Assembly (NCBI RefSeq): GCF_026210795.1
Contig: NC_089435.1
Location: forward strand, 620,001 to 684,000
Direction: 5' to 3'
DNA from: Rhizophagus irregularis
Taxonomy: Eukaryota
Length of the DNA: 64,000 nucleotides
A program made the position numbers and the translations under genes. The notes below the pieces were generated by a model. That model had not been told where the DNA came from, searched no databases, and saw only the letters and a program-made list of their open reading frames with translations. Positions 1 to 63,233 of the stretch are shown piece after piece. Each line of letters begins with the position of its first letter. Positions within the stretch are counted from its first letter, which is position 1.

Positions 1-1092
1 ATTTCTTGAATTAATTTATCGATCTGTTCATTTTTGCTGGTCCGGTTTGTATAATATTTCCTTAAATAATTTTTTTGACATACTTTACACCATTTATTCC
101 ATAAATTTGTATATTTATTACCACATTTTCTGCAAAAAACTTCAAAATATTGATCTAGGTTAAGAACTATAATGTAATTCTTCATAATAGGATTTTGTGA
201 TATTCCATATATTTTATATATTTGAAATTTATTATAATATTCTATAGTCTATTAAAAAATATGTTAATAATAAAAAAAAAATTGAAATTAAGTTTATCCA
301 ACATTCACATACCTCATTTAAAAATTCGTTAGTAATATTTTTAATTAAATATTTTAAAATAACTGTTTTATTTGCTGAATTTCTTGTATATTCGATTTTA
401 TAAGCGTGATCATATGTTAATGGACCATCCTTCCATCTTGCTGAATATGTTGTACTGTTTAATTCTTTAATATCATTAAACTGATTATATTGTATCCATT
501 CAATTATCGTATCGTTATAATCATTAATTTTTAATTGCATTTGCTGAATAAAGTTATTAATCTGTTTGTTTTCAATAGTACAAGTTGTGAAATATTCTTT
601 TAACCAATTTATTTGACATGATTTGCACCATTTAACATCTGTATATTTATTAGTACATTTATTGCAAAAATATTCAAAATACTGATCACTATTAAAAACT
701 ATAATATAATCCTTTGTATTCGGATTTTGAGATATACCACATATTGCAGCTTTATCATAATATACTCTACCCTATTAAAAAAAGAAAAATTTAATAAAAA
801 TAATTGAAGTTAAATTTACAGAAAATTTACATACCTCATCTAGAAATTCATTGGTGATATCTTGTGAATTAACTAAATATTTTAAAGTAACCGATTTATT
901 TTCTAGATTCCTAGTATATCTTTCTTTATTCCAAACCAATGGACCATCCTTCCATCTTGCTGAATATGTTTTATTGCTGAATTCTTTAATATCACTAAAC
1001 TGAAAATATGGTATCCATTCAAATATTACGTCTTTGTAATCATTAATATTTAATTGCATTTTTTGAATTAATTTATCAATTTGTTTATTCAT
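1..1092 (-). CDS. 5' part of a kinase-family gene made of tandem degenerate modules (CxxC-WCxxC knuckle + EWIxY/SARWKDGP N-lobe-like segment); runs off window start
   Basis: In-frame splicing 1092-835, 771-313, 248-<1 with GT-AG introns; module repeated (EWIPY..SARWKDGP..FLDE / GISQNP..CNKC..WCKSC / EWIQY..SARWKDGP / GISQNP..CRKC..WCKVC). Confidence 0.75.
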
Positions 1093-1269
1093 TTTGACAT
1101 ATAAATAATTATATGAATAAGATTTCCAAAAAAAATGCAAGTGCTAATACAATAAATGAATTTCGGCTTTTATTGTCATTTCGTATAACATGACATTAAT
1201 GAAGTTTGATATATGTAACATCTCACGAATTTGCCGATCATTTGCCGATCATTATTGATGACTTTTACA

Positions 1270-12312: not shown

Positions 12313-12436
12313 CTTTTAAATAAAAATCGAATTTTCCGTAGTACTATGGCGAATTCACCTTCTATTTAGCAGTTCATTATATAAAAATATAAATATGTTG
12401 AATTTTCCATACTCGTTCATACTGTAATATTATAAA

Positions 12437-19290: not shown

Positions 19291-19523
19291 AATAAGTTTC
19301 TTCGAAACAGACTTATGTTAAATGTACCATAATAATTATAATTTATAAGAAATAATGAAATAAAAATATTGTATAAACGAACATTACTATTCAATACTAA
19401 TTATTATACTTGTATTTAAAAGTATTTATTTTATTGCAAAAATTGTAAATTACATACATAATATAAATATTTTCTATATAATAAGTAATAACTGATAAAT
19501 AATCCAACAAATAAACAAAAATA

Positions 19524-20572
19524 TTAATCTTCAATTGCACAATCATAACCCTGAGTAGACTCTTCTTGAACTGAATATTCTTGAACTAAGATTTCAGTAA
19601 GTTTGCGACTTGTATAATATACTTGTGAATGAGATTGCATAATAGAAGTATTTGCTTGTAGATGAGATTGCATAATAGAAGTATTTACTTGTTCTTGTAC
19701 TGAAGTTTTGTCTGCTACTACAAGTTCAAACATATCATTTGTTAATTGATTATTAATTGCATGTACTCTAAATTGATAATTTCCATTCCTGTTTAATCTA
19801 TAATATTCATTAATACATTCAATCCATTCAGATATAGTATTTACAAGCATCATTATGGTTGGTCTATTAGAAGGGTTTGAATCCCAGCATTTTTCATTTA
19901 AATCTATATAACAATTTGGAGTACTTTTCATAATTTTAGGACGTTCTCCATTACAAATACTCAAAATCAGATCATGATCATGTGCTTCATGATTAAATGG
20001 GGGAATACCTGATGTAAATTCCCACATTATCATTGAAAAACTATAGATATCACTTGCTTGAGTATAGGGATTACTTCTTAATATTTCAGGCGCCATATAA
20101 GGTAAAACTCCATATATTTCATTATCAGAATCCTGTAAATCACTTATAGGTTTACATAATCCTAAATCAATAATAAATACCTCATTGTAATTATCTGATA
20201 TTAAAATATTACCATCATGGAAATCACCATGAGCTAAATTTGATTCATGAATTACTTTAAGTCCTGATACAATATTTTTTAACAATTGTAACCTGTCTTG
20301 CCACTTAAATTTAACTATATCAGACAAACGCTTTCTCAAACTTCCTTTTTTTGCATAACTCATTACGATCATATAATTTAAATTATTTGGATCTTGAGTA
20401 ATTTCAAAGAATTGAATAAATTTTGAAATGACTTTTTTTGACAATTATAATGATATTTCCACTATATAGATAATAAAAAAATTATTAAATTTTTTTGCAA
20501 AAGAAAATAAAATTTGCTATTAAAATAAATACTATACCTCATCCAGAAATTTACTATTCAAACTTGATGTAA
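19524..20572 (-). pseudogene. 5'-truncated, frameshifted paralog of the Sel1/non-RD kinase at 43319-47016
   Basis: Same intron and kinase exon (HGDFHDGN, IIDLG, YMAPE); 1-nt deletion near 20427 (TCATTTCAAAA vs TCATTTTCAAAA); homology stops near 20572. Confidence 0.8.
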
Positions 20573-21935
20573 CTCAAGAATGTCGCAATTTTTTTTTAAA
20601 AAAATTATACTAAAATATAACTTTGAATAACCTAATTAATGTGTTGAAGAAAAAATTTACTGCGCACATCAAAAATAATTGTAGACAAAGGCTATTAATA
20701 TTCGGTAGAGGTGTGTCGGTCGTTACAGACGTTACACGCCTGTATTTTCATACGTTAAAAATAACATCAAATCAGATCTTTGTTTTTGATTCTCACGTTT
20801 GCCCCAAAAAAATTTAAAGCTCGTCTGTTATAAATTGTACCAAAATGAAATTGGTGCTATTAAATTAATTAATTAAACTGAACATCTTTTAATAAATAGC
20901 GGCCGTTAAGTCGTAACTTAAGAAGAAATTAATGATTTCTTAATAGATTGTGTTCTTAGAATCACTACCTCGTGATATTATCGGATCAGCTGATGTTCCT
21001 TCCAATATATAAGATCATTTAGACAATACATCATCTTCTAATGATGATATCAGAAAATAATGAAAATGATGGGAAGAGTCATAAGTTGGATGATGATTGT
21101 GGAGGTGTAGATGGTGGAGTTCGTTCAATTGGAATAGTATTGATTTCATATTTATTAATTATAATAATAGATTGCGCTACGGAGCCTACAATTTTATTTG
21201 GACGGTAAGATAATTTGTAAGATTTGGAGAACATCTAGTGCGTTTCGTACATATATTTTTAGTAATTTTTTGTTATGTAATTCCAACATGCTTAATAGAA
21301 TTTTATATAAACTCAACATTACTGCATATATTTCTGGAAAATTTTACTTAATTAATTATTTATTTATTTAAAAATTGATTTTTTTTCATAGATTATCGTA
21401 GTATTATCATCATTCCACGGTACAAAATACGCCTTTCAATGAGTCGGTACTCAATAATCATCCTTAGCGACTTGCGTGACAAAGATTGAGCTAGCATTCT
21501 TGAAATTGTGTTGGTACGTTTAGTACAATTTAAATTTAGCAAATTTGTAATATTCTTAATACTGTGCTATCTTTATGTCATTAGGAAGGAGCCAGCAAAA
21601 ATGTTAATCCAATGCCTCATCAAGACGTGATTGAGCAATCGTTATGATACTATTTATCAACGACTGATAGTTCATTACAGAAAAAATATCAGGAAATCAT
21701 TCGAATATTTCAATAATATTTAAAGACCTTTGTAACAGTTTAATAATTATTATTTACATTAAAAATATCTGATATACGTACGTTAATTAGTAAGAAATTA
21801 GACTTATAAATCACTTTATAGGAGTGTTTAGATTTGTTAGGACTTAGGACACTTATTATTCATAATAAAGAATCATATTAGTTACTTTAATGGATAAAGC
21901 AACAATTTATTATTATAATCTGATAAACAAATAAG

Positions 21936-28005: not shown

Positions 28006-30574
28006 TTACTTTGCATGAATTTGTTCTAATTTATTTTGAGCATATTGATTTCCTTGTAATGCAGATTTTTTATACCAGTAAATTGCTTGATTTATGTCTT
28101 GAATAATTCCTTTTCCATTTTCATACATAAAAGCAAGATTATATTGAGCTGCAATATTTCCTAAATCTGCTGCCTTTTGATATAATTCAAATGCCCTTTT
28201 TTCATCAATATCAGTTCCAATTCCCCTCCTATAACAATCACCTAGATTACTTATTCCATATGCATTTCCTAAATCTGCTGCCCTTTGATATAATTCAAAT
28301 GCCTTTTTTTCATCAATATCAGTTCCAATTCCCCTTCTATAACAATTACCTAGATTACTTATTCCATATGCATTTCCTAAATCTGCTGCCCTTTGATATG
28401 ATTCAAATGCCTTTTTTCCATCAATATCAGTTCCAATTCCTTCTCTGTAATATTTACCTAGATTATTTATTCCACCTGCATTTCCTAAATCAGCTGCCTT
28501 TTGATATAATTCAAATGCCTTTTTTTCATCAATATCAACTCCAATTCCTTTTATATAACAATTACCTAAACTATTTATTCCATTTGCATTTCCTAAATCT
28601 GCTGCCTTTTGATATAATTCAAATGCCTTTTTTTCATCAATATCAGTTCCAATTCCTTGTTTATAACAATATCCTAAATTAAATATTCCACCTGCATTTT
28701 CTAAATCAGCTGCCTTTTGATATAATTCAAATGCCTTTTTTTCATCAATATTAATTCCTAATCCTTTTTGATAACAAACTCCTAAACGGTTTATTCCTTT
28801 TGAATATTCTCTTTCAGCTAATTTTTTAAATAATTCAAAAGCTTTATCATAATTTTTATAAACACCATACTCATATAGATAACAGCAACCAAGATTATAT
28901 TGTGCTATAATATTTCCTGAATTTGCAGCTACCTGATATAATTCAAATGCCTTTTTTTTATCAATCTTAATTTCAATTCCTAAATAATTAAAATCTCCAA
29001 GTAAAACAATAGAATTTGAATGATTTTGATTATTTAATAACCAAATATAAATTTCCTGTGGAGTTATATTATGATTATTAAGATAATTATAAATGCATAG
29101 TCTTTCTAATTCTTCATCTTCTACGCTTAATTTATCAGAAAGTTCAACCATTTCATCAACTGTCACCATAAAGTTATTATTTGATGATATTGAAGAATCT
29201 ATTTCTTTAATATTCATCTTGTCAAACTCTTGAATAAATTTGGATAATTCTCCATGTGATGAATTATTTATAGGATCCTCAAAAGCATTCAAATCGAGTT
29301 GTTGTTTATTGGATAATTGGTTTGTATAAGAATCATTTGTCCGAAAATCGTCTATAATCATGTTATTATTATTCAGAATAATTACATTTAATTTAAAGAC
29401 CACCTGATTGATAGTTGGACGACTATCTGGTTCATTATTCCAACAATCTAAAAAAAATAAATAGAATTAATTTAATTAACATTAATATAAACATAGAATT
29501 AATTATTAATTATATTTACCAGTATAAATATTCACATAATCTTCGGGTGTATCAGGAATGGGTGTCTCTCTAAGGCCTTGTGATATATTAATTGCTAAAC
29601 AAACGTCATACGGTTTACCTTCAGTATAAAAAGGAGGATTGCCACTAGATATCTCCCATAAAAGTATTCCAATACTATAAATATCACTTTTTTTATTTAA
29701 TTTATAATCTTGATTACTGAAACTTTTTGGGTCAATATAAGGAATTACTCCAAATAATTTCGTTGAAGAAAGGTTGGATGATTCCTCAATTCTTTTTGAT
29801 AGACCAAAATCAGCTAATTTAACTATATTTTGATGAACTAATACATTTTTGGAATGCTATTAAATACAATAAATTTATTAATTACAATTCAAAAACATGA
29901 AATAATAAAATGTAAACAAATGAATTACCAGATCACGGTGAATAATTCCTTCATCATGTAAGCATAATATAGCACAAGCCAACTGAGATGCCATATTAAA
30001 TTTATTATTCCAGGTAAGATTATCAAAATGTTCCTTCAAATATTCTCGAAGAGTACCTCCATCTGCATATTCCATTACCAACCAATATTTTTTTGAATTA
30101 TCAACTTGATTTTCTTTGTAAAAGAAAAAAAATAAAATAAATTTAGATTTTACAATCAAATTATGCATGAAAAGAAAGTATATTATACCTGTTGCAATAC
30201 CACAGAAACGAATAATATTCTCATGAAAATCCACTTCACGCTGAATTTTAAGCTAAATAGAATTTTAAATTAGAAGTTATATAAATTATAGGGTAATAAT
30301 TATTTATTATTACCTCTTTAACTATTTCTTTAATTGTGACGTTGTTAAAATTGAAAAAAGATTTTAATGCCAAATAATTAGGAGAACTTTTCCAGTTCGC
30401 ACGGTAAACTTTCCCAAACCCTCCAAATCCAATTTCTTGAAAATTACTGAAATGATTGAGTTCATAATATTTAAAGTAATCTTTTGCAATGGCTTCTTCA
30501 ATCCAATTAATACACTCATTATTTGAATTTTCAGTAAAATTTACGGGTATATTAAACTCGGTGTTATTAGACAT
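28006..30574 (-). CDS. TKL kinase with C-terminal Sel1-like repeats (RD kinase)
   Basis: Exons 30574-30314, 30252-30189, 30113-29929, 29856-29520, 29447-28006 in frame; GFGGFGKVY, LALK, HRDLHSKN, DFG; ~10 Sel1 repeats of 36 aa. Confidence 0.9.
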
Positions 30575-31236
30575 TATTGGGTTTAATTTTCATTGACGAA
30601 GATAATATTTTTTTTTTTCATGCAATTTATGCAATTTAAGTTTGCTTATTAAAAGGACTGGTATTACCAAGACGTAATTGTGCATGGAAGTACAGTAACT
30701 GTCGATCACTTCAGGTGATACTTTAAAAATAGGTGTATGCCAGACACTATGGCTGTATATATCTATCTATTTGATGATTTTATATATGAAGCACACCCAA
30801 GATACTACTCAAAATGTAAATATTACAATAAAAGACATGTTTTCGTAATGCATCATTACATCATATTTTTTTTTTTTTTTTTTTCATCATTACATCATAT
30901 TTTCTTTGTACATTTTTTTTTACATTTAAAAAGTTTGACGTTTTTGGTAACTCAAAAAATTAATCTAACTTTAATTGGAATGATCAACGAATTGAAAATA
31001 TAACGGGATGATTGAAAATTACGGCCCGTATTTAGAGATAATTCTGGCTCGAATTAACTAAAATCTGATCTGCACAATATAAACTAAAACGTCCAGTCAG
31101 TCCTAAAAATTCAATGTTGTTTAATATTTTAAAATCATAAATAATATCGCATAAAATTATAAAATTGCAATTTTAATTTAAAAATTCTGGTCTGGGTACG
31201 GTTCAGACCATATCTTCATATTTTAATTAATAACTA

Positions 31237-34696: not shown

Positions 34697-37028
34697 TCAG
34701 AACTTATATTCATTACGAAATCTAATAGCAGCTTCGTAACCATTATAAACACCTAATTCTATATAATTCTTGGCTTTTTCTATATTTTTTTTACATCCAA
34801 TACCATTATAATACATATTTCCAACGTTGTACATTGCTACTACAACACCATCTTCAGCAGCTTTTTCAAAATATTTAAGAGCTTCTGATTCATTCTTATC
34901 AACACCTTTACCATTAAACAAACAAGCTCCATATCTTACTTTTGCATCAGGGTGTTCATTTGCGTCATCATCAGCAACTTCTTTAAATAATTCAGCAATA
35001 ATTTTATCTTTATTTGGAGGGCTCTCAGCAAATCCTCTTGAAATGTAAATTGCTTTATAATATTTTGCTGTGATTTGATTACGGTTTGCTGTACCTCCTG
35101 TATTACCAAGGTTTGCATAGGCTTCAAAACATTTATATGCAGTTTTTACATCTCCACTAGGCCTGCCATTTTTAAACATCTTATGTTGTTTCGCTGCATC
35201 AGCAAGTGTCATGTATTTAAATGATTCAAAATCTAAATTAATAGGAAGTGCATATGCATCTTGATCAATGCTGAATGCTCGTTTTTGAATAAACTTCGGA
35301 GTGGAAGGTTTTCTGTCTAGGGTTAAATTACAAAAACTTGATGGTTCTTGTGAATATTTCTTGAAACAATTATTAAGAACTTCAAACATGTTCGTGATTT
35401 TTGGCCTAAAATCTGGGTCATGATAAACGGCTAAAAAAAAAGAAACCAATTAAGTACAACAAATAAAATTGTAATTTAAAATATTTTCTTTTACATACCT
35501 TCAATTTCTAATCGTTTGAATTCTTCTGGCATTTGACTATTTTCAGAAAATGGTTCTCTATACGTTTTATTACGTACCTTATCAATTATATCCACAATAT
35601 CATTACTATCCTGATATGGAACTCTTTCTTCAGCAATTTCCCAAAGTAAGATTCCAAAACTATAAATCTCACATCTTTGATCATATTTATAATTTGGCGG
35701 CCTATCCAACAATTCAGGTGCACAATAACGAACTCGATCAAAGTCTGGGTTACCGCGTTCGCCGTGTTGGTAACGAATTAATTTGAAATTTGCAAGTTTT
35801 GCTGTCTCATTAAGTGTAATTAATATATTTTTAGCTCTAATATCTTGATGAAAAATCTAAAAAAAAAAAAAAATTAAAAAAAAATTTTCGTTAATTAAAT
35901 AAAAGCTGGTTATATAATTACCTCTACAGTTCTTAAAAAATTTAATCCACGAGCAATATCAAGAGATATACGTAATTTTGATTTAAGGTCGAAATCATTT
36001 TTATTTTGATAAAATTCACGTAAATTTCCACGTTCAGCCCATTCAGTCACAAAATAATGACATTTATTTTCATCAGAAATTATTCCATAAAATTTTATGA
36101 TGTTTTGCCAATCATGAAGTTCTTTAAGAATTGTAACTTTATTTTGTACAATCATATAGTTTTCTGCCTCAGAGATATTTTTAAAAGCAAATACTTCACC
36201 TTTATTTGTTGTTTTATACCATTTATTTACATGTCTATCATCACTTTCATAATCAGAAAATTTTAATGGATGTATCTGAAAGATATTATCAATTTTTGTT
36301 TGATTTTGAGAAGTTTCATTCATAAATTTTTTCATTGTATTATTCATTACATCAACTTTTACAACTGTTGAAAAAAACTTTTCACTTAAGACTGTGAAGC
36401 AGTCGTTATCATTAATACCAGCCACCATTCCTAATATATACTATAATTATTAAAATAATTTAAAATTAATTTTATGTTCAATTAAAAGTAAAATAAAACT
36501 CAATTTTTTTTATAATCTTACTTTAAATAAATCATCTTGATCGGATTTTAATTGTTCAAGTTCATCAGCAATTTCAACGTTAATAGAAAAAGACAATAAG
36601 TTAATACAACTGTCAGATTCCATACATAATTCTTTAAAAATTTTCTCAACACTTTTCTCTTTAAGGTATTTTATCAAAGTTTTCATTAGAGAGATTTCTG
36701 ATATAAATTTTTTAATTTGCGTTATAATAGTAGATAATTCTTGTAAACGTATATAATTTATTCTATTAAAGAAATCTTGTCTGTCTTTTTTTTTATCTCT
36801 AAGATCTCGTACGGCTAATTCTGCAACACGAACTCGATTTTTTAATATTTTACAAGTTCGTTTATTGTGTTCAGCAGCTTCTACTAATTCGATGATTTCG
36901 TTAAAAAAATTTCCAATTTCATTAATTAAAGGAAGAAATTTTGCAAATGGAACAACCATTAAAGCACTATCTTCCAAATTTTCAACGAAATCATCTTCTT
37001 TATTATTTTTTGATCCATCATCTCCCAT
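34697..37028 (-). CDS. MLKL-like protein: N-terminal helical bundle + pseudokinase + Sel1 repeats (~705 aa)
   Basis: Exons 37028-36522, 36440-35922, 35856-35499, 35430-34697 in frame (2118 nt); PFAKFLPLI..AEHNKRTCKILKNRV helical N-terminus; no Gly loop, FAFK, HQDIRAKN, KLANFKL, YCAPE, CEIYSFG; C-terminal Sel1 repeats. Confidence 0.85.
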
Positions 37029-38629
37029 TTCTAATAATTTATTTAATTAATAATTTAGTCGAAAAAAAGTTTTTTTTTTTTACGAAACTACAATCATCGT
37101 TTTTATTTATTCATGTATGTGCTGTACTACCATTGTGATCAGAAATCCCACGCACAATATATTTATAATTATATTATCAAAAAAAGACATCTATAGCTTG
37201 GTGTTACTAAATTATAAATTTATATGGGGTGATCAAATAGGAAATAAAGATTAATCGGAAGAGGGAGTAGCTATATCGGTCACAGGACCGAATGATTGGA
37301 TGAAAATGGGCCATGTAGTGACCATTTCATCAATCAATGAAGGTTTTTTTGATCATGTATTAATTAATATTAGCTATTTTTAATCCATTATATAAGCCTT
37401 ATTTTAACTTTTTCCTACAAAATATTCATTTACACCATATCCACTTTATTATATTATATTAATCATGTGTTATTACTATGCCTAATAAACTATTGGGCTG
37501 AACATAACGGTTACACGAAATCAAGAATACATTTCTTTTTGTATAGCTTGATAATAGCTCTACAGTGCAACATGAATATATGATATTTCGTGCTATTGTT
37601 TTAAAATATAAATTAAACGCAAACTATTATCATGGAGATAAGGAATTGTTATAAGTATTTTCTATCATTTAGTAAATTTTATATTAAAAAAACTATTTAC
37701 ATTAACGTGATAATTTTATGTTAAATCCATTGTTTATTCTGTTAACTCAAAATACTTCAGTTAAGTAGTATTATTTTATTTATTTCCTTATCTCAATATC
37801 TCACGTCCTTTTTTTCGATTACCAATATTATTAATTTTTTTCGTATTTCCCTTAGCATCATTCATTCTTTTTTTAAAAGAAACAATTAGATAGTAATTTA
37901 TTCTTTTCGTTCCCTTTTATTATTAAAGAATTTTTAAAAATTATTTAATTGCAGTTTATGGGTTTTTAATTACATTAGAATAAACCTTCAATGTGGACGA
38001 TCTAATTAATAGACCTTGATAAGTTTAGTAAATTTCATTTTCTTAATGATAATGGCAACGCTAACTACCTGCTAAAAAAAGTTGATACATATCTATTAAA
38101 AAATTTTTTTTTTTTTTTTTGAACTTAATCTATTCTTAACTATATTTTTTTAGTATTAATTCGTATTTTGTTTAATTTCTGTCGGAAAATCAGAAACTTG
38201 TGCGACATAAACAAAAAACAAACAAATCTTCGTAATATGTTATCATCCATTTGTATCAAGACAAACATTACATCATTTATATATCACTTATTTCGTCATG
38301 TATTCTGTATTTCTCCATGTATTTCGTCATGTATCAAATGGATTTATTCGGATTATTTAAATAATTATCATTTTAATTAAAATACCGAATTCAAAAAAAA
38401 GTTAGCATGGCGATTTAAAAGAAACTTACCATTTACAATAATGATTTTAGCGAAATCACAAATATTTTTTTTTTATTGTTGTAGCCTTAGATTTCTTTGT
38501 CTAACCAAATTATTAACACCAAAAAATTTGAAACATAATAAATTTTTTAAAAAAGAAAATCAATCTTTAATATATATTAAGAAATTCTTTGCTAACGAAA
38601 AATTATCAAACAATATAAACAATATTAAA

Positions 38630-42625: not shown

Positions 42626-43318
42626 GAATGTTTGCATTTTGGATAAACATCTAGGAAAAACATTGAAGTTCCAAAAAAAATTTTGAACCTATCACAAGTA
42701 CATACAATTTGGAAGATAACAATAATTAATGAAAAAAGCTCTAGCTATTTTTATTTCCTTTTTAAATTTATTTTTAATTTTCCTTTTTTTTCAATTTATT
42801 TATATATAAATCGTTAAGATAAAAAAAAAATGAATATAAAAATAAATAAATTCATATTTTAAATAATACAAAACAAAAAAATTATATGATGCATCGACCA
42901 TGTCGATCAAATTTACAGTTTTGTAATATATAACGTAAAAGGGAAATATTTTTTTTGGTTAATTAAAATAGAAACTTTTTTGTGTAAACATCCAGATCAA
43001 CGTATCATAATGCATCTTTGCCCTTTGATAAGTATTTCCAAATAAAACCGAATTTTCCGTAATACTAGAATGAATTCACCGACAGAAAATTCTACATTCT
43101 ATTCAATGGTCCATACCTACATTTTTCAATTTTCATTAAATTTAGGCCGGAATTACGATTTTAGCTAGAATTAAGAAAATTTCGGCCAAAATTATATATT
43201 CGAAAAATTAATTTTTAGCCAATTTTGATCTACATATATATATAAGCTCTATATATTATGCTATAATTTTAATATGGCCAATCATAATAGAAAAAACGAT
43301 TGATAAATAACAGAATTA

Positions 43319-46300
43319 TTAATCTTCAATTATACAATCAAGACCTTGAGTCTCTTCTTGAACTAAAATTTCAGTAAGTTTGCGACTTGTATAATATGCT
43401 TGTGAATGAGATTGTATAACAGAGGTATTTGCTTGTTCTTGAAATAAAGCTTTATCTGCTTCTACAAATTCTAACATATTATTTGTTAATTGATTATCAA
43501 GATTAGGTACTTTATAGACATAATTTCCATCCCTGTTGAATCTATAATATTCACTAATACACATATTCCAATCAGATAAAATATTTTCAAGCATTTTTAT
43601 GGTTGGTCTTTTAGAAGGATCTGAATCCCAACAACTTTTCATTAAATCTATATAACATTTTGGAGTATTTTTTATAATTTCAGGGCGTCTTCCTTCTTTA
43701 CAAATACTTAAGGTAAGGTGATTATCATGTGCTTCATGATTAAATGGAGGGATACCTGATGTAAATTCCCACATTATCATTGAAAAACTATAAATATCAC
43801 TTGCTGGTGTATAAGGGTTTTTCCTTAATATTTCAGGCGCCATATAAGGTAAAACTCCATAAATTTTATTAACTTTATTGACAGAATCTTGTAAATCACT
43901 TATAGGTCTACATAATCCTAAATCAATAATAAATAACTCATTATAATCATCTGACATTAAAATATTACCATCATGAAAATCACCATGAGTTAAATTTGAT
44001 TCATGAATTACTTTAAGTCCTGATACAATATTCTTTAATAATTGTAACCTGACTTGCCATTTAAATTTAGCTATATCAGATAAACACTTTTTCAAACTTC
44101 CTTTTTTTGCATAACTCATTACAATTATATAATTTAAATTATTTGGATCTTGGGTAATTCCAAAAAATTGAATAAATTTTGAAAATGATTTTTTTTGACA
44201 ATTATAATGATATTTCCACTATATAAATAATAAAAATATTGTTAACCATTTGCATAAAAAAATAAAATTGCTACTAAATATGAATAATATACCTCATCCA
44301 GAAATTTACTATCTAAGCTTGATGAACTATTAAGTGTTTTAAGAATAACCTCATAACCTGTTTGAAAATTGCATCTATTCCATTGTTGTTTGTTAAAATT
44401 CCAACTATAAATAGGTCCATCTAACCAGATAGCTTTATGAATTTCACTAAATCCTCCTTTATCATAATAATTAATCTCTGACGAGTTATTATAAGGTATC
44501 CACTCTAAAATTTCATAACTACTTTTAGCATTTAGTTGTGCTTCTTGAATAAATTTATCAATAAATTCATTTTTACTAGTCCACTTTGAAAAATCTTGTT
44601 GAAATCGTTTAGTATTACATTGTTGGCACCATTGATAATCAGTATATGGTTGCATGCATTCATTACATGATTCAACTTCATTTTTAGGATTTACTTTATC
44701 ATTTTCTACTACTTTTTGATGCCAATAAAAGGCTTTTTCTAAATTCTTCTTTGTCCCTTCTCCATTATTATAACATGTGGCTAAATTATTCATTGCACCA
44801 GTATGACCATTTTCTGCTGCTTTTTGATACCAATGAAAGGCTTTTTCTAAATTCTTTTCTGTTCCTTTTCCATTTTCACAATGTATGGCCAAATTAAACA
44901 TTGCGTCAGTATACCCATTTTCTGCTGCTTTTTGATACCAATAAAAGGCTTTTTCTAAATTCTTTTCTATTCCTTCTCCATAATTATATCTATTGGCTAA
45001 ATTAAACATTGCTACTTCATAACCATTTTCTGCTGCTTTTTGATACCAATAAAAGGCTTTTTCTAAATTCTTTTCTATTCCTTCTCCATAATTATATCTA
45101 TTGGCTAAATTAAACATTGCTACTTCATAACCATTTTCTGCTGCTTTTTGATACCAATAAAAGGCTTTTTCTAAATTCTTTTCTGTTCCTTCTCCATAAT
45201 TATATCTATTGGCTAAATTAAACATTGCTACTTCATAACCATTTTCTGCTGCTTTTTGATACCAATAAAAGGCTTTTTCTAAATTCTTTTCTGTTCCTTC
45301 TCCATAATTATATCTATTGGCTAAATTAAACATTGCTATTTCATAACCATTTTCTGCTGCTTTTTGATACCAATAAAAGGCTTTTTCTAAATTCTTTTCT
45401 ATTCCTTCTCCATAATTATATCTATTGGCTAAATTAAACATTGCTACTTCATAACCATTTTCTGCTGCTTTTTGATACCAATAAAAGGATTTTTCTAAAT
45501 TCTTTTCTGTTCCTTCTCCATTATTATATCTACTGGCTAAATTAAACATAGCACTAGTATTACCATTTTCTGCTGCTTTTTGATACCAATAAAAGGCTTT
45601 TTCTAAATTCTTTTCTGTTCCTTCTCCATAATTATATCTATTGGCTAAATTAAACATTGCTATTTCATAACCATTTTCTGCTGCTTTTTGATACCAATAA
45701 AAGGCTTTTTCTAAATTCTTTTCTATTCCTTCTCCATAATTATATCTACTGGCTAAATTAAACATTGCTACTTCATAACCATTTTCTGCTGCTTTTTGAT
45801 ACCAATAAAAGGATTTTTCTAAATTCTTTTCTGTTCCTTCTCCATTATTATATCTACTGGCTAAATTAAACATAGCACTAGTATTACCATTTTCTGCTGC
45901 TTTTTGATACCAATAAAAGGCTTTTTCTAAATTCTTTTCTGTTCCTTTTCCATTTTCACAATGTATGGCCAAATTAAACATTGCGTCAGTATACCCATTT
46001 TCTGCTGCTTTTTGATACCAATAAAAGGCTTTTTCTAAATTCTTTTCTGTTCCTTCTCCATTATTATATCTATTGGCTAAATTAAACATTGCTATTTCAT
46101 AACCATTTTCTGCTGCTTTTTGATACCAATGAAAAGCTTTTTCTAAATTCATTTCTGCTCCTATTCCATTATAATACCAATTGGCTAACTTATTCATTGC
46201 TTTTTCATCTCCATTTTCTGCTGCTTTTTGGTACCAATAAAAAGCTTTTTCTAAATTCTTTTCTATTCCTTTTCCAATTGTACAACATATGGCTAAATTA

Positions 46301-47016
46301 AACATTGCACCAGTATGATCATTTTCTGCTGCTTTTTGATACCAATAAAAGGCTTTTTCTAAATTCTTTTCAGTTCCTTTTCCATTTTCACAATGTATGG
46401 CAAAATTAAACATTGCGTCAGTATCACCATTTTCTGCTGCTTTTTGATACCAATAAAAGGCTTTTTCTAAATTCTTTTCTGTTCCTTCTCCATTTTCATA
46501 ACATATGGCTAAATTAAACATTGCTTCTTTAATACCATTTTCTGCTGCTTTTTGACACCAGTAAAAGGTTTTTTCTAAATTCTTTACTGTTCCTTCTCCA
46601 TAATAATTACATACGGCTAAATTAAACATTGCTACTTCATAACCATTTTCTGCTGCTTTTTGATACCAATAAAAGGCTTTTTCTAAATTCTTTTCTGTTC
46701 CTTCTCCATTATAATAACATACGGCTAAATTAAACATTGCTACTTCATAACCATTTTCTGCTGCTTTTTGATACCAATGAAAGGCTTTTTCTAAATTCTT
46801 TTCTGTTCCTTTTCCATTATAATACCTATTGGCTAAATTAAACATTGCTTCTTTAATACCATTTTCTGCTAATTTTTCTAAAGAGTTAATACATTCTTTA
46901 CACCATAATTCTTCAGTAAACGGTTTATTGCAATATGAACAATTTTTGGTGTTTACTGTATCAGTTATATCAGTATGTTTATCATAGATATTTAAATTAC
47001 TAGATTTAGTTTCCAT
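43319..47016 (-). CDS. Sel1-repeat (20x) non-RD TKL kinase, ~1207 aa
   Basis: Exons 47016-44293 and 44218-43319 in frame; CxxC-WCxxC knuckle, 20 x 36-aa Sel1, second knuckle, EWIPY, KGGFSEI, VILK, HGDFHDGN, DLG, YMAPE. Confidence 0.9.
44710..46869 (-). repeat. Coding tandem array of 20 x 108-bp near-identical Sel1 units
   Basis: Counted from the translation; consensus AENGxxxAMFNLAxxxxxGEGTEKNLEKAFYWYQKA. Confidence 0.95.
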
Positions 47017-47236: not shown

Positions 47237-47870
47237 AGTATATGATTATCCAGTACGGTACGAATTTGCAAACCTGTACGGTACGGTTGATCAATTTTTG
47301 TGATAATCATTTCGTACCGTACCGTACTGGTTCTATAATAATCTCTTTATATATAGAACCAGTACGGTACGGTACGAAATGATCAACCATAAAATTTAAC
47401 CAACTGTACCGTACCGTACTGGCTCTATAATAATCTCTCTATATATAGAACCAGTACAGTACAGTACGGTTATTGTTTTAAATGAACATTTTGAACATTG
47501 GTGTCCAAATTACAAAAATGAACATTTTGAACATTGGTGTCCAAATTACAAAAATGAACATTTTGGACATTGGTGTCCAAATTACAAAAATGAACATTTT
47601 GGACATTGGTGTTCAAATTACAAAAATGAACATTTTGGACATTGGTGTCCAAATTACAAACATGAACATTTTGGACATTGGTGTCCAAATTATTAAAATG
47701 GACACTGGTGTCCAATAATTATATGCTAAATGTATCGTACTGATTTTCTCTTTATTATAGTGTCAGTATGGTACGGTACGGTCATGTTGATCAAATTTTG
47801 TAATTTTGTATGGGTGATCAACCGTACCGTACAGGTTTGCAAATTCGTACCGTACCGATTATCCTACTAC
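47237..47870. mobile_element. MITE/foldback element with internal palindromes and a 36-bp minisatellite
   Basis: gtacggtacgaatttgcaaacctgtacggtacggttgatca is mirrored at 47815-47856; ~6.5 x aatgaacattttggacattggtgtccaaattacaaa at 47481-47716. Confidence 0.85.
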
Positions 47871-48577: not shown

Positions 48578-50483
48578 GGTCATGATAAAAAACTCTTCCT
48601 TCAAAAATTAAAAAACATAACAATTCCGCAGTAAAATTTTAATTTTATTTTACTCAGTTTTTTATTAAAATGGAAGATACAAGAAAAATACAAATAGCCG
48701 AAAATAAGTTTCCTATGCTTATTATGGGTGATGAAAATAGGTTTTTAAAAACTACATATTTCCAATATATACAATATTGTGAAAGTCTTAGTGCTTCATT
48801 TTTTAAGGGACGTTCAACAGAAGTTCAAAATAATATTTTAAAAGCAAATTTTGGATTAACAAATGAAGACATACTCAGTTGGGAGAATAGAGCCTCTCGT
48901 TACCAAATGACTCCTCAAAGTTTCTCATTTTTTTTACATGTTGCTATGTACTCTGCTTCTCATGGTTTTAACGCAGTATATGATGGGATACAACAGAGAT
49001 ATGCTGAAAGAAAGCAAATAATGAATGTTGTGAGAAAACATGAGGATAAGTCTAAAAAAAGAAAGGCTAAAAAGAATAAAAAGAAAAAACACCAAACTGT
49101 TGATTCTGATTCTGATCCATTAACAAATGATGAATCAGATGATTATATGCGAAATACTGTTGATGATGATGATCAAATAGGTGATGATCAAGATGTTAAT
49201 ATAAATCGGTCGATTGCGGATGCCTCTGGATCTCAATCACATGTTGATCAACCTTTTGATATGGACGTCACACCAGTAGAACCAGTATCTAATCTGGATG
49301 TTACAATGCCTCAGCCGCAGCTATTACAACAACCAGATAATAATTTATCTAATTTGACAAAATCTTCGAATAAAAAAAGAAGTCAAATAAAAATATAATT
49401 CAGCAAGTTATTACAGGTCATAAACCAGGTGATGATGGTACATCACAAGTCAGAGACATTTTGGTTTATGATATCCCAGTATCCTGGACGCCAGAAGAAA
49501 TTCTGCAAAAGTTAACATTTTGGGGGAATACTATCTCATTACAAATGAAACAACAAAAGAAATACCAAACAGTTCGTTTGAAGATAGAATTAAATTCTTT
49601 GCGTCTTACCCAGTTCGAAGGTAATGATGATCCTGTTTGGACTACGGATTTAGGGGGGATACCGGTTCGATGGTTTCCAGCAAGGTGGACACTCAAAGAA
49701 AGAAAACAACGTGAGAAGTTCCAAGCTACAATTCGAAAAATTCCAGAATCGATGACGATAGCAGCCTTATGGAAAGACCATTGCCCACATTCATTCCTTT
49801 CTGCGATTAAGGGTTTGAAAAGCTTTAAAATTATACAGACTGCAAGGGGGGATCGTAAACTTATTGGTTATTTTGAAAAGTGGGTTGATATGCGTACAGC
49901 ATTAGATAATCAATTTGATTGGGAGCAATTGCACCTGTCTTGGAATCGACATGATTCTCCATCGCAACGAACAAGGTCATTTGGTAATAATACCAACAAG
50001 GACCGGCAACGAACTTCAGGAAGTCGACAGACTGATAAAAGTAAACAGAATTCTAAGAATTCTAAAAAGAAACCACAAGAGGCAAAATCTGAGAAGCATA
50101 ATAAGCAGAAGAAAGATAAGTCCCGTAAAACATCACGATCAAAGGTCTTAGCGGAAATTTTAGATGTTTTACGTAAATTAATTTAGGATATACTAAATTT
50201 TTTTAGGTTTTAGAATAATTTTCTTTTTGTTTTATAGTGTGTTTTTTTTTTAGAAAAATATTTTTGATCTAGTCACCAAAGGATGTACGAATACCGGTAG
50301 GGTGCTTATGCATGTGAAAGTATTTGGGCAGGCATGACGGTAGATAGTTCTTTTGAACATATATTCTTAAGTCACCATTTTTTTTTATTAGTTTTTATTC
50401 GATCTTGTATTTAAACTAGATTAGTTCAATTTTGTATATTTTTCTTTTATAATAAATATTGTCCTTTGTTTAAAAAAAAAAAA
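48578..50483 (+). mobile_element. Poly(A)-tailed retroposed element carrying only an ORF1-like coding region
   Basis: 16-bp TSD tataatttatgttcca (48562-48577 and 50484-50499); AATAAA at 50451; A-tail at ~50472-50483. Confidence 0.8.
48670..50186 (+). pseudogene. LINE ORF1-like protein (basic/acidic tracts, RRM-like region) split by a 1-nt frameshift
   Basis: The -1 frame continues KKSNKNIIQQVITGHKPG..RDILVYDIPVSWTPEEIL from an A-run at ~49372-49378; no RT or endonuclease motifs seen. Confidence 0.55.
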
Positions 50484-52960: not shown

Positions 52961-53487
52961 AATAGATGATATGTAATATCAAAAGTTGTAAAATATATAT
53001 TATCAGTTATTCATATTATTAGTATTATAATAAAATTATTAGATAATCATCAAACCGATAATATTATGGGAGTATTGAAGTAAGAACTTATCATATTTAA
53101 TACGTTTGACTCATTAATCACATAAATCTCATAAATCACATAATGACGCAATTGACAAATTACGACAAAATTACTCAAATTAATGTCATTTATCATAATT
53201 TTAAAATCATTATTGTTAAATAATTTAGGATTATGACAAATCTTTTAATGGTAGGTCATTTACTAAATACTTTTTGTTATTATATGTCATAACTTAATAG
53301 CGTCCTGAAACTTCAGAAAAGTGTCATGAACAAATATGGAAAGAATCGCCTCTGAAATGGTATATATATATTGCAATATTGTAATTATAAATTTGTTAAA
53401 AAGTATAAATAATTAATTTTTCTCAATCATAATATTTGGATATATATAAGTACATCGTCCGCGTTTCCGTCCCTTTTTAAAGAAAAA

Positions 53488-54894
53488 ATGGTGTATTTAA
53501 TTAATGACGTGCTTTACTCAATATTTGAAGAATTAAGAAATGACAAAAAATCTCTTTATTCATGTCTTTTAGTAGACAGGACTTGGTGTGTAGTAGCAGT
53601 GCCAATTTTATGGAAAAATCCTACACGAACTGATAATCCTAATTATTATTTATCAGAAAAAGTAGTGTGTGCATTATTTAATGTAATATACTCACATTTA
53701 CCTGTAGAATTAAGAGAATATGATATTGAAACATATCAACATCCTTCATTTAATTACATTAACTTCTGGAGACATTTAGACTTTGATCATTTAAACTGTA
53801 TAATTGAACGAAAATTGATTGGAACGTCCAACGACTCCATCGTGTCTAACATAAGAAATGAGATGTTAAAATTATTTATTAATAGGGATACAAAGTTTAC
53901 TCATCTTTCCATTTACATAAATTATGATTGCCAACTCTATCAAATTTCAGGAACTGAGCATTGTTTTTCAGAGCTTGAATCTTTTTGTTATACAGGCAAT
54001 AGTGATCAGAGTATTTTAGAAGGATTAGCTAAAATATGCAAATCAATTAAAAAATTAGTATTTGATATTATTCGTTACCCCACTGATAACTCCGGATTCA
54101 TTAAACTAATTGAAGTACAAAAAAATCTAAATGACGTTTGTATCTTCCATATATATGATGGAGATGATCCAAATAATTCATTTTACAAAACTCTTGAAGA
54201 AATATTGATTAAGCATGCAAATACTCTCAAATATTTGAGAATTGATTGGAAACCTATTACAAGATTTCTTTCATATCTTGTAAATTTATTAAGTTTAGAA
54301 ATTAGAATTCCTCACTTAGTATATTATAATGAGCCAGATAATTTAAAAAATTTATCATTTCCTAATTTAAGAATCCTCAAAGTTCGACAAATTCCTTCTA
54401 AAATTATAACAAATTTAATTGAAAGTACAAAAGGAAATCTTGTTAAAATTAAAATTAAATATTGTGATAGTGATAATATAAAAAGACTTATTCAAGCAAT
54501 TTATCAGAATTGTCCAAATCTTGAATATCTAAAATTATCATTATTATCTAATGCTGATTTAATTTTTCCGGAATTTGAAGATTTATTAATTAAATGTAAA
54601 TTTTTAAATGGATTAGTTTTTAATACATATGATGATAAATTTGATTGGGTTAATTTATTCTCAATATTAACTAAATCATCACCAATTAGTTTGATTAATT
54701 TTAAATTTTTTTCTATTAAGGTACAATATATAAAAGATGTAACATTATTTCTTAATAATTGGAAAGATAGGTATCCAATATCTTTAAGTTTAACTAATCA
54801 TAATCTAAATTACTATGAAGTAAAACAACAATTACAAGATTATAAAACGAAAGGTATTATAAAAAAATGTTACTTTAATAGCGGAGAAATTTGA
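53488..54894 (+). CDS. F-box / LRR(RNI)-like protein
   Basis: LINDVLYSIFEEL..SLYSCLLVDRTWCVVAVPILWKNP; Leu-rich repeats such as CPNLEYLKL. Confidence 0.85.
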   Translation: MVYLINDVLYSIFEELRNDKKSLYSCLLVDRTWCVVAVPILWKNPTRTDNPNYYLSEKVVCALFNVIYSHLPVELREYDIETYQHPSFNYINFWRHLDFDHLNCIIERKLIGTSNDSIVSNIRNEMLKLFINRDTKFTHLSIYINYDCQLYQISGTEHCFSELESFCYTGNSDQSILEGLAKICKSIKKLVFDIIRYPTDNSGFIKLIEVQKNLNDVCIFHIYDGDDPNNSFYKTLEEILIKHANTLKYLRIDWKPITRFLSYLVNLLSLEIRIPHLVYYNEPDNLKNLSFPNLRILKVRQIPSKIITNLIESTKGNLVKIKIKYCDSDNIKRLIQAIYQNCPNLEYLKLSLLSNADLIFPEFEDLLIKCKFLNGLVFNTYDDKFDWVNLFSILTKSSPISLINFKFFSIKVQYIKDVTLFLNNWKDRYPISLSLTNHNLNYYEVKQQLQDYKTKGIIKKCYFNSGEI

Positions 54895-61262: not shown

Positions 61263-61565
61263 GATTTGGTAAATCTCTTATTTGCTACGCCGCAGAGGAA
61301 CTTTTGAAGATGTTTCGTATCATTCTCAAACTCTTCGTTTATTATTGTATATAAAGTAATTCAATTCTCTTGACTTCATACTTACAATTTCATCCTCTAT
61401 TACTGTAAGATTTGAACCGTAGTAATTTCTCAAGTGAACGAAGTGATCGACATGCATAAATTAATTGTGCAACAATATCGGAGTCGTAACTCCGAAATGC
61501 ATGAATTTAACCACAAACCAAACTTCAAACAAAAACCTCTCCTTCCCTTTCTCTTTTTACTTAAT

Positions 61566-63233
61566 ATGGCGTGCTCAAAAATATTTTCAGGAGAATTACC
61601 CGAAATATTGAGCGATATTATGCAATATTTTCGGAATGATTTTTCAACATTACATTCTTGTATCTTAGTCAATAGATTATGGTGTCATTTGGCAATTCCA
61701 TTATTATGGGAAAATCCATTTTCAATTATATCTCGTAAAAACAATTATAACATTGAATATCATAAAATTCGTTTTATTGAAATTTATTTGATTAATTTAA
61801 ATGATAATGATAAAATAAAATTAAATGAATTTGGTATAAATCATTTAATTCCTTTAAATACATTATTTAATTATCCTAGTTTTATTCAACATTTAGATGG
61901 ACGTTTGATTGGTGATTGTATTGAAAACTGGGCTGCAGCTGTTAAAAAGGAAAAATCTTTATTTTGGTTTGTTAAGAATATACAAAATTCAGATTTCATA
62001 AAATTTATTCATAAATCATTAATTGAAATATTCATTGAGAATGAAGCGAATTTATATACTTTTAATGTTACACATTATCATGATTATTTTGATATTGTTT
62101 CTGAATCAGTTTTACAAAATCCACATTTTATTCGTAATATTAAAATTCTTTATCTTAAAATTAGTACTCCTTTATTAAAAGTTTTAAGTTCTAATTGCAA
62201 TTCAATTTCATCACTTTATAATCCAAGATTTAAAGATAATACAGATATTGAATATTTATCACAATTAATTAAATCACAAAAAAATCTTAAAAAAATTTGT
62301 TTCGTTAAAAAATTTCCTCCAATATTATTAAATTCAAATTGTTTAAACACTTTAAACACAATTATATTTCTTTATATTAATTTTAATAATATAAATATTT
62401 TAAATGAAGTATTCGAACAATTAAATGTTTTAGAATCTGTTCATATTATGTATTGTTATTCTTTAGATTCTAATTTTATTCAACAAATAATTAATTTAAG
62501 TAAACCATTTAAATTAAAATCCTTATTTGTAGATGAAATATTCGAGTCAATAGAATTATTATTACAAAAATCTGGAGATTATTTAGAAAATTTTGGATTA
62601 TCATTTGAACCTAATACTACATATTATAATGATGTATCAGATTCACAACTCCTTGAAGCAAAATCACAACTACTTAAATTAATCACAAGATATTGTACAA
62701 AAGTTAAATTCTTTGAATTAATTGAATTTAATAATAATCAAAATATTTATTTAACATTCGACTTAATTGAAAGCATTAAACAAAACCTTAATTATCTTAC
62801 TATTGATATAAATTACGATTTTGGATCAGGTTTTAATAGAGATACTGAACTTAGCTCAATTGTACTACAAAATTTAGGTCAAATACTTCCTTTTAAATTA
62901 GAATATTTAGATTTGACTCTTGTTATGAATACTACTGATTTTGAAATATTTTTGATAAATTCTCAAGATACTTTTATCAAGAAATTATTATTTAGTAATA
63001 TAATAGATAGAACACGAGAAGAAGTTAGACAAGACAATTTGTTATATAATATAAAAGATCATATTATGGAAATGAAAAGAGTTAAATACTTTGCTTTTCA
63101 AAATCATTTTACTGATGATGGTGAAAATGATGAAGATTTATTTCATCTGATAGATGAAGTAAAGGAATATAATATAGTAATCCAAAATTACAATGATTTG
63201 AAAATTAAATTTATCGAATTTTTAGTAGATTAA
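61566..63233 (+). CDS. F-box / LRR-like protein (likely start MACSKIFSGELPE)
   Basis: LPEILSDIMQYFRNDFSTLHSCILVNRLWCHLAIPLLWENP; the ORF track start at 61434 is GTG, so ATG 61566 is preferred. Confidence 0.85.
   Translation: MACSKIFSGELPEILSDIMQYFRNDFSTLHSCILVNRLWCHLAIPLLWENPFSIISRKNNYNIEYHKIRFIEIYLINLNDNDKIKLNEFGINHLIPLNTLFNYPSFIQHLDGRLIGDCIENWAAAVKKEKSLFWFVKNIQNSDFIKFIHKSLIEIFIENEANLYTFNVTHYHDYFDIVSESVLQNPHFIRNIKILYLKISTPLLKVLSSNCNSISSLYNPRFKDNTDIEYLSQLIKSQKNLKKICFVKKFPPILLNSNCLNTLNTIIFLYINFNNINILNEVFEQLNVLESVHIMYCYSLDSNFIQQIINLSKPFKLKSLFVDEIFESIELLLQKSGDYLENFGLSFEPNTTYYNDVSDSQLLEAKSQLLKLITRYCTKVKFFELIEFNNNQNIYLTFDLIESIKQNLNYLTIDINYDFGSGFNRDTELSSIVLQNLGQILPFKLEYLDLTLVMNTTDFEIFLINSQDTFIKKLLFSNIIDRTREEVRQDNLLYNIKDHIMEMKRVKYFAFQNHFTDDGENDEDLFHLIDEVKEYNIVIQNYNDLKIKFIEFLVD

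What the first reader, a model, noticed from the sequence alone, without database searches (positions are those of the whole stretch)
44710..46869. Twenty 108-bp Sel1 units with two hypervariable cassettes and signs of shuffling
Seen: the scaffold is nearly invariant in DNA. Variation concentrates after AENG (IKE/YEV/DTD/HTG/DEK/YEI/YTD/NTS) and after NLA (NRYYN/VCYYN/ICYEN/IHCEN/ICCTI/NWYYN/SRYNN/NRYNY/TCYNN). Units 10-12 recur as 13-15, unit 9 recurs as 19, and cassettes recombine (YEV with VCYYN, SRYNY or NRYNY). The array sits between two Zn knuckles. Known analogues are the concertedly evolving WD40 repeats of Podospora HNWD proteins and TALE repeats. Inference: a recombination-diversified recognition code, possibly varying between nuclei.
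Basis: partly seen in the sequence, partly recalled or inferred. Interest (0 to 1): 0.75.

Follow-up and report, generated by a model that had tools for sequence, protein, structure and literature searches.

The report
Reshuffled Sel1 array on fungal kinase
Twenty near-identical repeats form the front half of a protein kinase gene in a mycorrhizal fungus; the repeats were copied and mixed recently and differ mostly along a predicted binding groove, so the protein is likely a sensor whose target specificity is being retuned, much as in fungal immune receptors.

Summary
In detail: 20 in-frame 108-bp Sel1 units (44710-46869, minus strand). Units 10-12 and 13-15 differ at 1 of 324 nt; units 9 and 19 at 1 of 108. 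Its kinase exon is identical to a Rhizophagus irregularis protein, and 47 of 50 relatives share the layout with 2-13 units. The two 'cassettes' are the two ends of one helix, which lines the concave groove in solved Sel1 structures. A site model gives omega about 3.3 (p 0.006-0.015) at codons 5, 7, 14, 15 and 17. Two of three recombination tests are positive. The kinase has Gly instead of Arg in its HRD motif (non-RD), a trait linked to immune kinases. Against a standing shuffling system: only 4 of 34 relatives have such homogeneous arrays; two paralogous arrays are unchanged between records that look like different strains; no unit is shared exactly between genes; omega above 1 in wider relatives depends on the model. 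Variation of this array between isolates or nuclei was not tested, and only units 17-20 have independent support. Verdict: a new variant of the known fungal repeat-sensor pattern, on a kinase rather than an NLR.

The parts
44293..47016 (-). Exon 1 (908 codons): N-terminal leader, C4 motif, 20 Sel1 units, second C4 motif, kinase N-lobe (Gly loop KGGFS at 44460, catalytic Lys in VILK at 44349)
   Evidence: relatives begin with the same METxxS leader
46891..46941 (-). First CxxC-x9-CxxC motif (aa 26-42), possible zinc site
   Evidence: translation; the same motif is in P0002, P0003, P0015, P0022; low model confidence over residues 1-40
44710..46869 (-). 20 x 108-bp Sel1 array (aa 50-769). Units 1-7 and 20 are 4-15 nt from their nearest neighbour, units 8-19 only 0-1 nt
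   Evidence: helix 1 = unit positions 6-18, helix 2 = 26-38 in the model
45250..45897 (-). Three-unit block duplication: units 10-12 (45897-45574) and 13-15 (45573-45250), 1 nt apart
44617..44667 (-). Second CxxC-x9-CxxC motif (aa 784-800), start of the extension that precedes the kinase in this family
44219..44292 (-). 74-nt GT-AG intron
   Evidence: skipped by one contig of run X8 (RNA is a guess; 20 letters on the short side); public proteins P0156 and P0265 read ...KFLDE/WKYHY... across it
43319..44218 (-). Exon 2 (299 aa): rest of the kinase, with HGDFHDGN (non-RD) at 43987, DLG at 43924, YMAPE at 43846
   Evidence: Pfam PF00069/PF07714; 100% identical to R. irregularis DAOM 197198 protein P0156; motifs
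47253..47855 (.). MITE-like insertion about 240 bp upstream of the start codon: 41-bp perfect terminal inverted repeat, internal 36-bp tandem repeat, GATTATCC on both sides
   Evidence: no effect on the gene was tested
19509..20574 (-). 5'-truncated paralogue (83% nt): the last codons of exon 1, the intron and a frameshifted exon 2; no array upstream

Best explanation
The array is the N-terminal Sel1 solenoid of an intact 1,207-aa protein kinase gene of Rhizophagus irregularis, likely a cytosolic sensor kinase whose predicted binding groove has been diversified by selection while unequal crossing-over and gene conversion likely multiplied and homogenised the units. Shown: gene structure, unit relationships, the Sel1 fold of the model, the position of variable codons in helix 1, the non-RD catalytic loop, and no hydrophobic segment for a signal or membrane anchor. 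Statistically supported but model-dependent: omega above 1 at helix-1 codons and recombination within units. Inferred: a partner protein, most likely a non-self or danger signal, binds the concave groove, which at 7-8 units per turn would be about 2.5 superhelical turns long; binding brings kinases together or relieves inhibition through the C4 linker; swapping, adding or losing units changes specificity. In this family the process looks episodic: a gene undergoes a burst of amplification, as here in units 8-19, while most paralogous arrays are older and stable.
For: Gene and family: (47 of 50 relatives have Sel1 units before the same kinase). Fold: pLDDT 90, 13/7/13/3 helix-loop pattern, best matches are Sel1-repeat structures 6ok3 and 4bwr. 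In 4bwr the first helices form the concave face (PMC3851747, passages). Unit positions 5, 7, 10, 14, 17, 18 map to TPR positions 34, 2, 5, 9, 12, 13, the hypervariable ligand-binding positions (PMC1261162, passages; mapping by my alignment of conserved L/A/Y residues). Selection: M2a vs M1a omega2 3.3-3.4, p 0.006 (MG) and 0.015 (GY); still p 0.012 without codons 16-18. With positions fixed beforehand from TPRs omega was 2.7 (p 0.002, MG) and 2.0 (p 0.055, GY); scaffold omega 0.3-0.4. The same positions (5, 6, 7, 10, 14, 17, 18) are the most variable in 239 independent metagenome units. Recombination. [quoted passage not shown] No hydrophobic stretch (max KD19 0.85). Contigs of runs guessed to be RNA match both ends of the gene without differences.
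Against: No ligand, substrate or phenotype is known. Helix-1 variability is general in Sel1 proteins. The codon tests are my own script on a single FastTree tree of 16 short sequences; recombination and multi-base codon changes (GAA vs ACT at codon 6) can inflate omega (established caveats, recalled). In 60 of the 239 metagenome units omega was 1.4 (p 0.004, MG) but 0.8 (not significant, GY). The PHI-like test was not significant. Only 4 of 34 relatives reach 85% internal identity over 100 aa. Of 14 same-cluster pairs compared, two with 2-6 differences behind the array had 0 of 360 array differences, and an R. irregularis / R. diaphanus pair kept the unit order with only 9 of 30 differences at the 8 variable positions (6.7 expected). 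10 of 11 metagenome loci with Sel1 units before a kinase motif are HRD, so non-RD marks this clade, not Sel1-kinases at large. Codon 16, a conserved core Tyr in the family, varies here (5 of 20 units), which may be decay.
Confidence: 0.55

Rival explanations
1. Neutral burst: a member of a large, fast-turnover, transposon-associated gene family whose array expanded by ordinary unequal exchange. Helix-1 codons differ because they are exposed and unconstrained, because old divergent patches resist conversion, and because the TAT/AAT run at codons 16-18 mutates easily. There is no selection for new specificities.
For: Synonymous divergence is also higher inside the cassettes (pS 0.21 vs 0.08 in the scaffold), as expected for older patches. 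The within-cassette count test is borderline (p 0.056). Omega is below 1 for metagenome units under GY. A decayed paralogue lies 23 kb away and a MITE-like element sits upstream. Kinase and Sel1-like genes are high-copy and more methylated than core genes (PMC8647823, passages).
Against: Omega stays above 1 in the window under both codon models and without codons 16-18. The 2.7-kb frame is intact and the scaffold is under purifying selection.
Confidence: 0.3
2. The number and order of units 8-18 are partly an assembly artefact; the real array is shorter or differently ordered.
For: Records of one strain differ by whole units at paralogous loci with no other change: +1 (P0022/P0299), +4 (P0026/P0301), +4 (P0002/P0274). 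Short-read assemblies fail on such arrays in Podospora (PMC12222747, abstract). No other record holds units 1-16.
Against: A second record (P0265) reproduces units 17-20, the linker and the kinase letter for letter. There are 16 distinct units, the duplicated block carries a difference, and the frame is unbroken. The selection and recombination tests used distinct units only.
Confidence: 0.1
3. An ongoing somatic diversification system: nuclei within one mycelium carry different arrays, giving a repertoire of receptors in a shared cytoplasm.
For: Identical units in register are substrates for mitotic unequal exchange. Unit-number differences among same-strain records could be real. Sel1 domains differ in number between haplotypes of heterokaryon A4 (bioRxiv 10.1101/2023.01.15.524138, passage).
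Against: No recombinase, donor cassette library or signal sequence was seen at the locus. Nuclei of DAOM197198w were reported nearly identical. Paralogous arrays are mostly stable. Same-strain differences are more simply assembly or annotation error.
Confidence: 0.05

Closest known systems
[quoted passage not shown]
   Same: Same domains and lineage. 47 of 50 relatives have Sel1 units ahead of this kinase.
   Different: 20 units against 2-13 in the relatives found, and 99% best internal identity over 100 aa. The passages read describe copy-number expansion only, not repeat evolution, selection or the non-RD loop. One public model of this gene (P0156) starts after the array.
Fungal NLRs with high internal conservation: Podospora HNWD (het-d, het-e) and TPR/ANK NLRs (PMC4986451 passages; PMC13449251 abstract and section 12; PMC12222747 abstract)
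   Same: Near-identical repeats, hypervariable concave-face residues with positive selection, repeat shuffling.
   Different: No NACHT or NB-ARC domain; the repeat is Sel1, N-terminal, and joined to a kinase. Allelic repeat-number polymorphism and inter-locus exchange, shown for NLRs, are not shown here. Sel1, Rhizophagus and Glomeromycota do not occur in the main text of PMC13449251; Sel1 and Rhizophagus do not occur in that of PMC4986451.
Ectocarpus LRR-ROCO and NB-ARC-TPR candidate receptors (PMC3341825, abstract and outline)
   Same: Shuffled repeat units under diversifying selection fused to a signalling domain, with high gene turnover.
   Different: There each repeat is an exon; here all 20 units lie in one exon, so exchange must be between coding repeats.
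Non-RD immune kinases (plant EFR, PMC8463890 passages; XA21, FLS2 and animal IRAK/RIP recalled)
   Same: Arg of HRD replaced (Gly here; Gly, Cys, Ser or Asn in relatives), kinase fused to a variable repeat domain.
   Different: No signal peptide or membrane segment; no immune role shown.
TALE repeats (recalled, not tested)
   Same: Near-identical tandem repeats with a few variable residues.
   Different: Five to eight variable positions along one helix rather than a di-residue; Sel1 fold; kinase output; no evidence of nucleic-acid binding or a one-to-one code.

Membership tests
Sel1-like repeat (SLR) proteins | 36-aa helix-turn-helix repeats matching PF08238 | tested here: met
   20 stretches, 759.6 bits
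Sel1-like repeat (SLR) proteins | Superhelical alpha-solenoid with 13/7/13/3 geometry | tested here: met
   model of aa 1-445; best fold matches 6ok3 and 4bwr, TM 0.71-0.74; same geometry in PMC3851747
Rhizophagus N-terminal Sel1 + kinase family | Sel1 array, C4 linker and kinase in one frame | tested here: met
Active protein kinase | Catalytic Lys, HxD Asp, Asn, DFG Asp and APE present | tested here: met
   VILK, HGDFHDGN, DLG, YMAPE; activity itself not assayed
Non-RD kinases | No Arg before the catalytic Asp | tested here: met
   HGD in the window; 42 of 44 relatives
HIC repeat proteins (Dyrka 2014 criterion) | 85% or more internal identity over 100 aa | tested here: met
   0.99; criterion
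HIC repeat proteins (Dyrka 2014 criterion) | Positive selection at concave-face residues | tested here: met
   met for this array; model-dependent in wider relatives
HIC NLRs (HNWD type) | NACHT or NB-ARC nucleotide-binding domain | tested here: not met
   Pfam scan of both exons finds none
HIC NLRs (HNWD type) | Repeat-number polymorphism among wild alleles | tested here: inconclusive
   no other allele of this array found; paralogues: one 12 vs 13 unit pair, two unchanged pairs, and counts are unreliable
HIC NLRs (HNWD type) | Repeat exchange between loci | tested here: inconclusive
   no identical unit among 273 distinct units of other genes; nearest are 3-9 aa away, and for unit 4 another gene is nearer than its own; the family sample is incomplete and protein-level
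HIC NLRs (HNWD type) | Role in allorecognition or regulated cell death | not testable with these tools
   needs genetics or heterologous assays
TALE-like code proteins | One repeat reads one base through a variable di-residue | tested here: not met
   variation spreads over codons 5-7 and 14-18; fold matches are Sel1 and TPR solenoids

The most novel reading that the evidence does not exclude
Arbuscular mycorrhizal fungi have a non-NLR class of variable intracellular receptors: Sel1 solenoids fused to non-RD kinases, diversified by repeat shuffling, which recognise non-self (other strains, endobacteria, viruses or plant proteins) and signal to the Glomeromycotina MLKL-like proteins; arrays like this one differ between isolates and set compatibility.
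Probability: 0.15. Interest if true: 0.8.

Novelty: new variant of a known kind. Interest (0 to 1): 0.45.

Why it matters
Kinase and Sel1 genes are among the most expanded families in mycorrhizal fungi and have no assigned function in the passages read. This gene shows three traits of known recognition receptors together: homogenised repeats, selection on the predicted binding groove, and a non-RD kinase. That gives a specific and cheap test (long-read typing of one locus across isolates) of whether these fungi diversify receptors the way Podospora does with NLRs, which bears on strain compatibility in a largely clonal, multinucleate symbiont. It also shows a practical gap: public gene models of this locus lack most or all of the array. 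If alleles turn out invariant, it is an ordinary recent repeat expansion.

Tried and rejected
No whole genome is held for the window, so genome-wide family counts and DNA-level unit sharing could not be done. A homologue search with the array found no allele of this gene; 120 of 1,034 hits were listed. The metagenome pattern scan gave 51 loci, none allelic (nearest unit 9 or more nt away in the part of the output that was shown; best kinase 83%). All laid runs were contigs, and family-shared words dominate depth, so expression level, copy number and strain differences cannot be read; the array itself has no read-level test. Uncovered stretches in those calls are not taken as absence. Shares of words (at most 0.66) are not interpreted. 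The PHI-like test was negative. Earlier scan findings: none by sequence or by the first word set; the 8 returned are bacterial envelope systems and do not bear on this. Rejected: TALE-like DNA code, NLR membership, a secreted or membrane receptor. Literature: ten searches. Searches addressed novelty and listed no paper on repeat evolution or non-RD status of Rhizophagus Sel1-kinases; two searches listed only 20 of 645 and 15 of 429 hits. Tisserant 2013, Chen 2018 and Morin 2019 were not read, no supplements were opened, and those of the bioRxiv preprint are closed; they may describe this architecture. No complex prediction was run because no candidate partner exists.

Full report
Observation. 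The array is real and sits where stated: 20 units of 108 bp from 46869 down to 44710. Units 10-12 and 13-15 differ at 1 of 324 nt, units 9 and 19 at 1 of 108, and 10=13, 12=15, 14=17=18 are identical, leaving 16 distinct units. Scaffold identity is 95.0% and cassette identity 62.9%. Units 8-19 each have a neighbour within 0-1 nt, while units 1-7 and 20 are 4-15 nt from their nearest. A homogeneous interior with divergent ends is what unequal crossing-over is expected to leave (inference).

The gene. The array lies inside an ORF starting at 47016. After a 74-nt GT-AG intron (44292-44219) the frame continues into a kinase exon ending at 43319, giving 1,207 aa. The intron is skipped by one contig of a run guessed to be RNA and by public gene models. 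Exon 2 is 100% identical to a protein of R. irregularis DAOM 197198 (P0156), whose model begins after the array. A second record in the same cluster (P0265) matches units 17-20, the linker and the kinase exactly. C-terminal fragments with 1 and about 8 differences exist in other R. irregularis records, so the locus is probably not strain-private, but their arrays are not on record. Contigs of runs guessed to be RNA match the 3' end (X8, 43000-43416) and the 5' end (X9, 46922-47010) without differences; this is weak evidence of transcription. The two Cys motifs are CxxC-x9-CxxC; the second begins the extension that precedes the kinase in relatives.

The family. Searching with the linker and kinase N-lobe gave 50 hits among 103 candidates, all named Rhizophagus or Glomus cerebriforme. 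Of these, 47 carry 2-13 Sel1 units before the kinase. Units are more alike within genes than between genes (nearest unit in the same gene 0.41, shuffled mean 0.034, maximum 0.065 in 200 shuffles; 262 units in 31 genes). Only 4 of 34 relatives with four or more units reach 85% identity over 100 aa, against 99% here; the 34 passed a motif filter out of 79 and include a few duplicate records of one locus. This gene is therefore the longest and most homogenised member seen.

Where the variation lies. A model of residues 1-445 (pLDDT 90) has helix 1 at unit positions 6-18 and helix 2 at 26-38, and matches solved Sel1 solenoids. The two cassettes are thus the two ends of helix 1. In the 4bwr structure the first helices form the concave face, which is the less conserved one, and a turn takes 7-8 units (PMC3851747, passages). 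By my register, unit positions 5, 7, 10, 14, 17 and 18 are TPR positions 34, 2, 5, 9, 12 and 13, the hypervariable ligand-binding positions (PMC1261162, passages). In 239 of 323 metagenome units kept after removing stops, frame breaks and duplicates, and in 273 distinct protein units, the same positions are the most variable. I did not measure surface exposure on the model; the concave assignment rests on homology.

Selection. On the 16 distinct units, a random-site test favoured a class with omega 3.3-3.4 (p 0.006 MG, 0.015 GY), with codons 5, 7, 14, 15 and 17 assigned at over 0.9; dropping codons 16-18, which lie in a TAT/AAT run, left p 0.012. With positions fixed beforehand from TPRs, omega was 2.7 (p 0.002) or 2.0 (p 0.055); scaffold omega was 0.3-0.4. 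In a random 60 of the 239 metagenome units omega was 1.4 (p 0.004) under MG but 0.8 under GY. These are my own implementations on one fixed tree; recombination and multi-base changes can inflate such tests, and synonymous divergence is also raised inside the cassettes. The evidence is moderate for this array and weak for the wider family.

Recombination. A Sawyer-type tract test (p 0.0025) and a test of tree conflict between unit halves (p 0.005) were positive. 62 of 136 site pairs fail the four-gamete test, but incompatibility did not rise significantly with distance (p 0.16). No window unit has an identical copy in another gene; the nearest are 3-9 aa away.

Does it vary between strains or nuclei? 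Not tested for this locus. For paralogues I compared 14 same-cluster pairs. Two pairs with 2-6 differences behind the array, which I read as different strains, had 0 of 360 array differences. One such pair had 12 vs 13 units. An R. irregularis / R. diaphanus pair kept its unit order, with 9 of 30 differences at the variable positions (6.7 expected). Two pairs were too divergent or truncated to call alleles (P0038/P0320, P0039/P0157), and one had only about two units in common (P0274/P0275). The other seven were records labelled with one strain; several differed by whole units and nothing else (also P0002/P0274), so unit counts in public records are unreliable. Lin et al. found nuclei of DAOM197198w more than 99.97% identical in the aligned genome (PMC3886924, passages). 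Short reads fail on such arrays in Podospora (PMC12222747, abstract).

The kinase. Catalytic residues are present, but the loop reads HGD. Among the hits, 42 of 44 with a readable motif are non-RD (31 Gly, 7 Cys, 3 Ser, 1 Asn) and 6 had none. [quoted passage not shown] Against over-reading: 10 of 11 metagenome loci with Sel1 units before a kinase motif are HRD. There is no hydrophobic segment, so the protein is likely cytosolic.

Mechanism. Most likely (0.55) a cytosolic sensor kinase: a partner binds the Sel1 groove, the kinase is switched on, and unequal exchange plus selection on helix-1 codons retunes specificity in episodic bursts. Binding, activation and the nature of the partner are inferred. 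Rivals: a neutral expansion with relaxed exposed residues (0.3), a partly misassembled interior (0.1), somatic diversification between nuclei (0.05).

Comparison and novelty. It works like the high-internal-conservation NLRs of Dikarya (PMC4986451, passages; PMC13449251, abstract and section 12) but is not an NLR, since it has no nucleotide-binding domain. Expansion of kinase and Sel1 genes in Rhizophagus is known (PMC8647823 and PMC6123716, passages), as are Sel1-bearing MLKL-like proteins in Glomeromycotina (PMC8778642, passage). PMC9815663 and PMC12881547 (passages) added nothing on Sel1-kinases; PMC3341825 was seen as abstract and outline. My searches listed no study of repeat evolution or non-RD status in these Sel1-kinases, but several genome papers were not read. 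Whether R. irregularis has NLRs was not tested. Verdict: observation confirmed, interpretation partly supported, new variant of a known kind, interest 0.45.

Noticed in passing
window 28006-30589 (-): A second Sel1-kinase with the opposite layout (HRD kinase first, 8 Sel1 units last). Units 3-7 are 4-16 nt apart and vary mainly in helix 1 as well, so a separate array shows the same pattern.
   Followed up: partly
window 34697-37046 (-): MLKL_N-like domain (PF22215, E 1e-5, below the curated cut-off) + kinase-like domain with HQD and no DFG + 2 Sel1 units: an MLKL-like protein about 6 kb from the gene studied; a possible cell-death effector. Such proteins are reported for Glomeromycotina.
   Followed up: partly
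window 19509-20574 (-): Truncated, frameshifted paralogue of the kinase; a public 279-aa model (P0203) covers its remaining frame.
   Followed up: yes
window 47253-47855: MITE-like element with 41-bp perfect terminal inverted repeats, nested GTACCGTAC palindromes and a 36-bp x 6.2 tandem repeat, just upstream of the gene.
   Followed up: partly
window 48643-50186 (+): Two overlapping ORFs (251 and 270 aa) with no Pfam match; the second ends in a basic, low-complexity tail. They resemble a retroelement gag-like region by my recall only.
   Followed up: no
window 232-1143 (-), 12428-14689 (+), 53413-54894 (+), 61416-63233 (+), 4215-5742 (-): Further kinase-family fragments with Cys-rich N-termini, two F-box-like proteins and an FAD-linked lactone oxidase-like gene: a region rich in expanded families.
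   Followed up: no
proteins P0051, P0053, P0077: The same Sel1 unit type is fused to other C-terminal parts: a domain without Pfam kinase match, repeated C4-linker modules, and a different HRD kinase. The array seems to move between gene types.
   Followed up: no
L036:66-1831: Closest metagenome relative: kinase 83% identical, HGD loop, five whole units with scaffolds 93-96% like the window's but different cassettes.
   Followed up: partly
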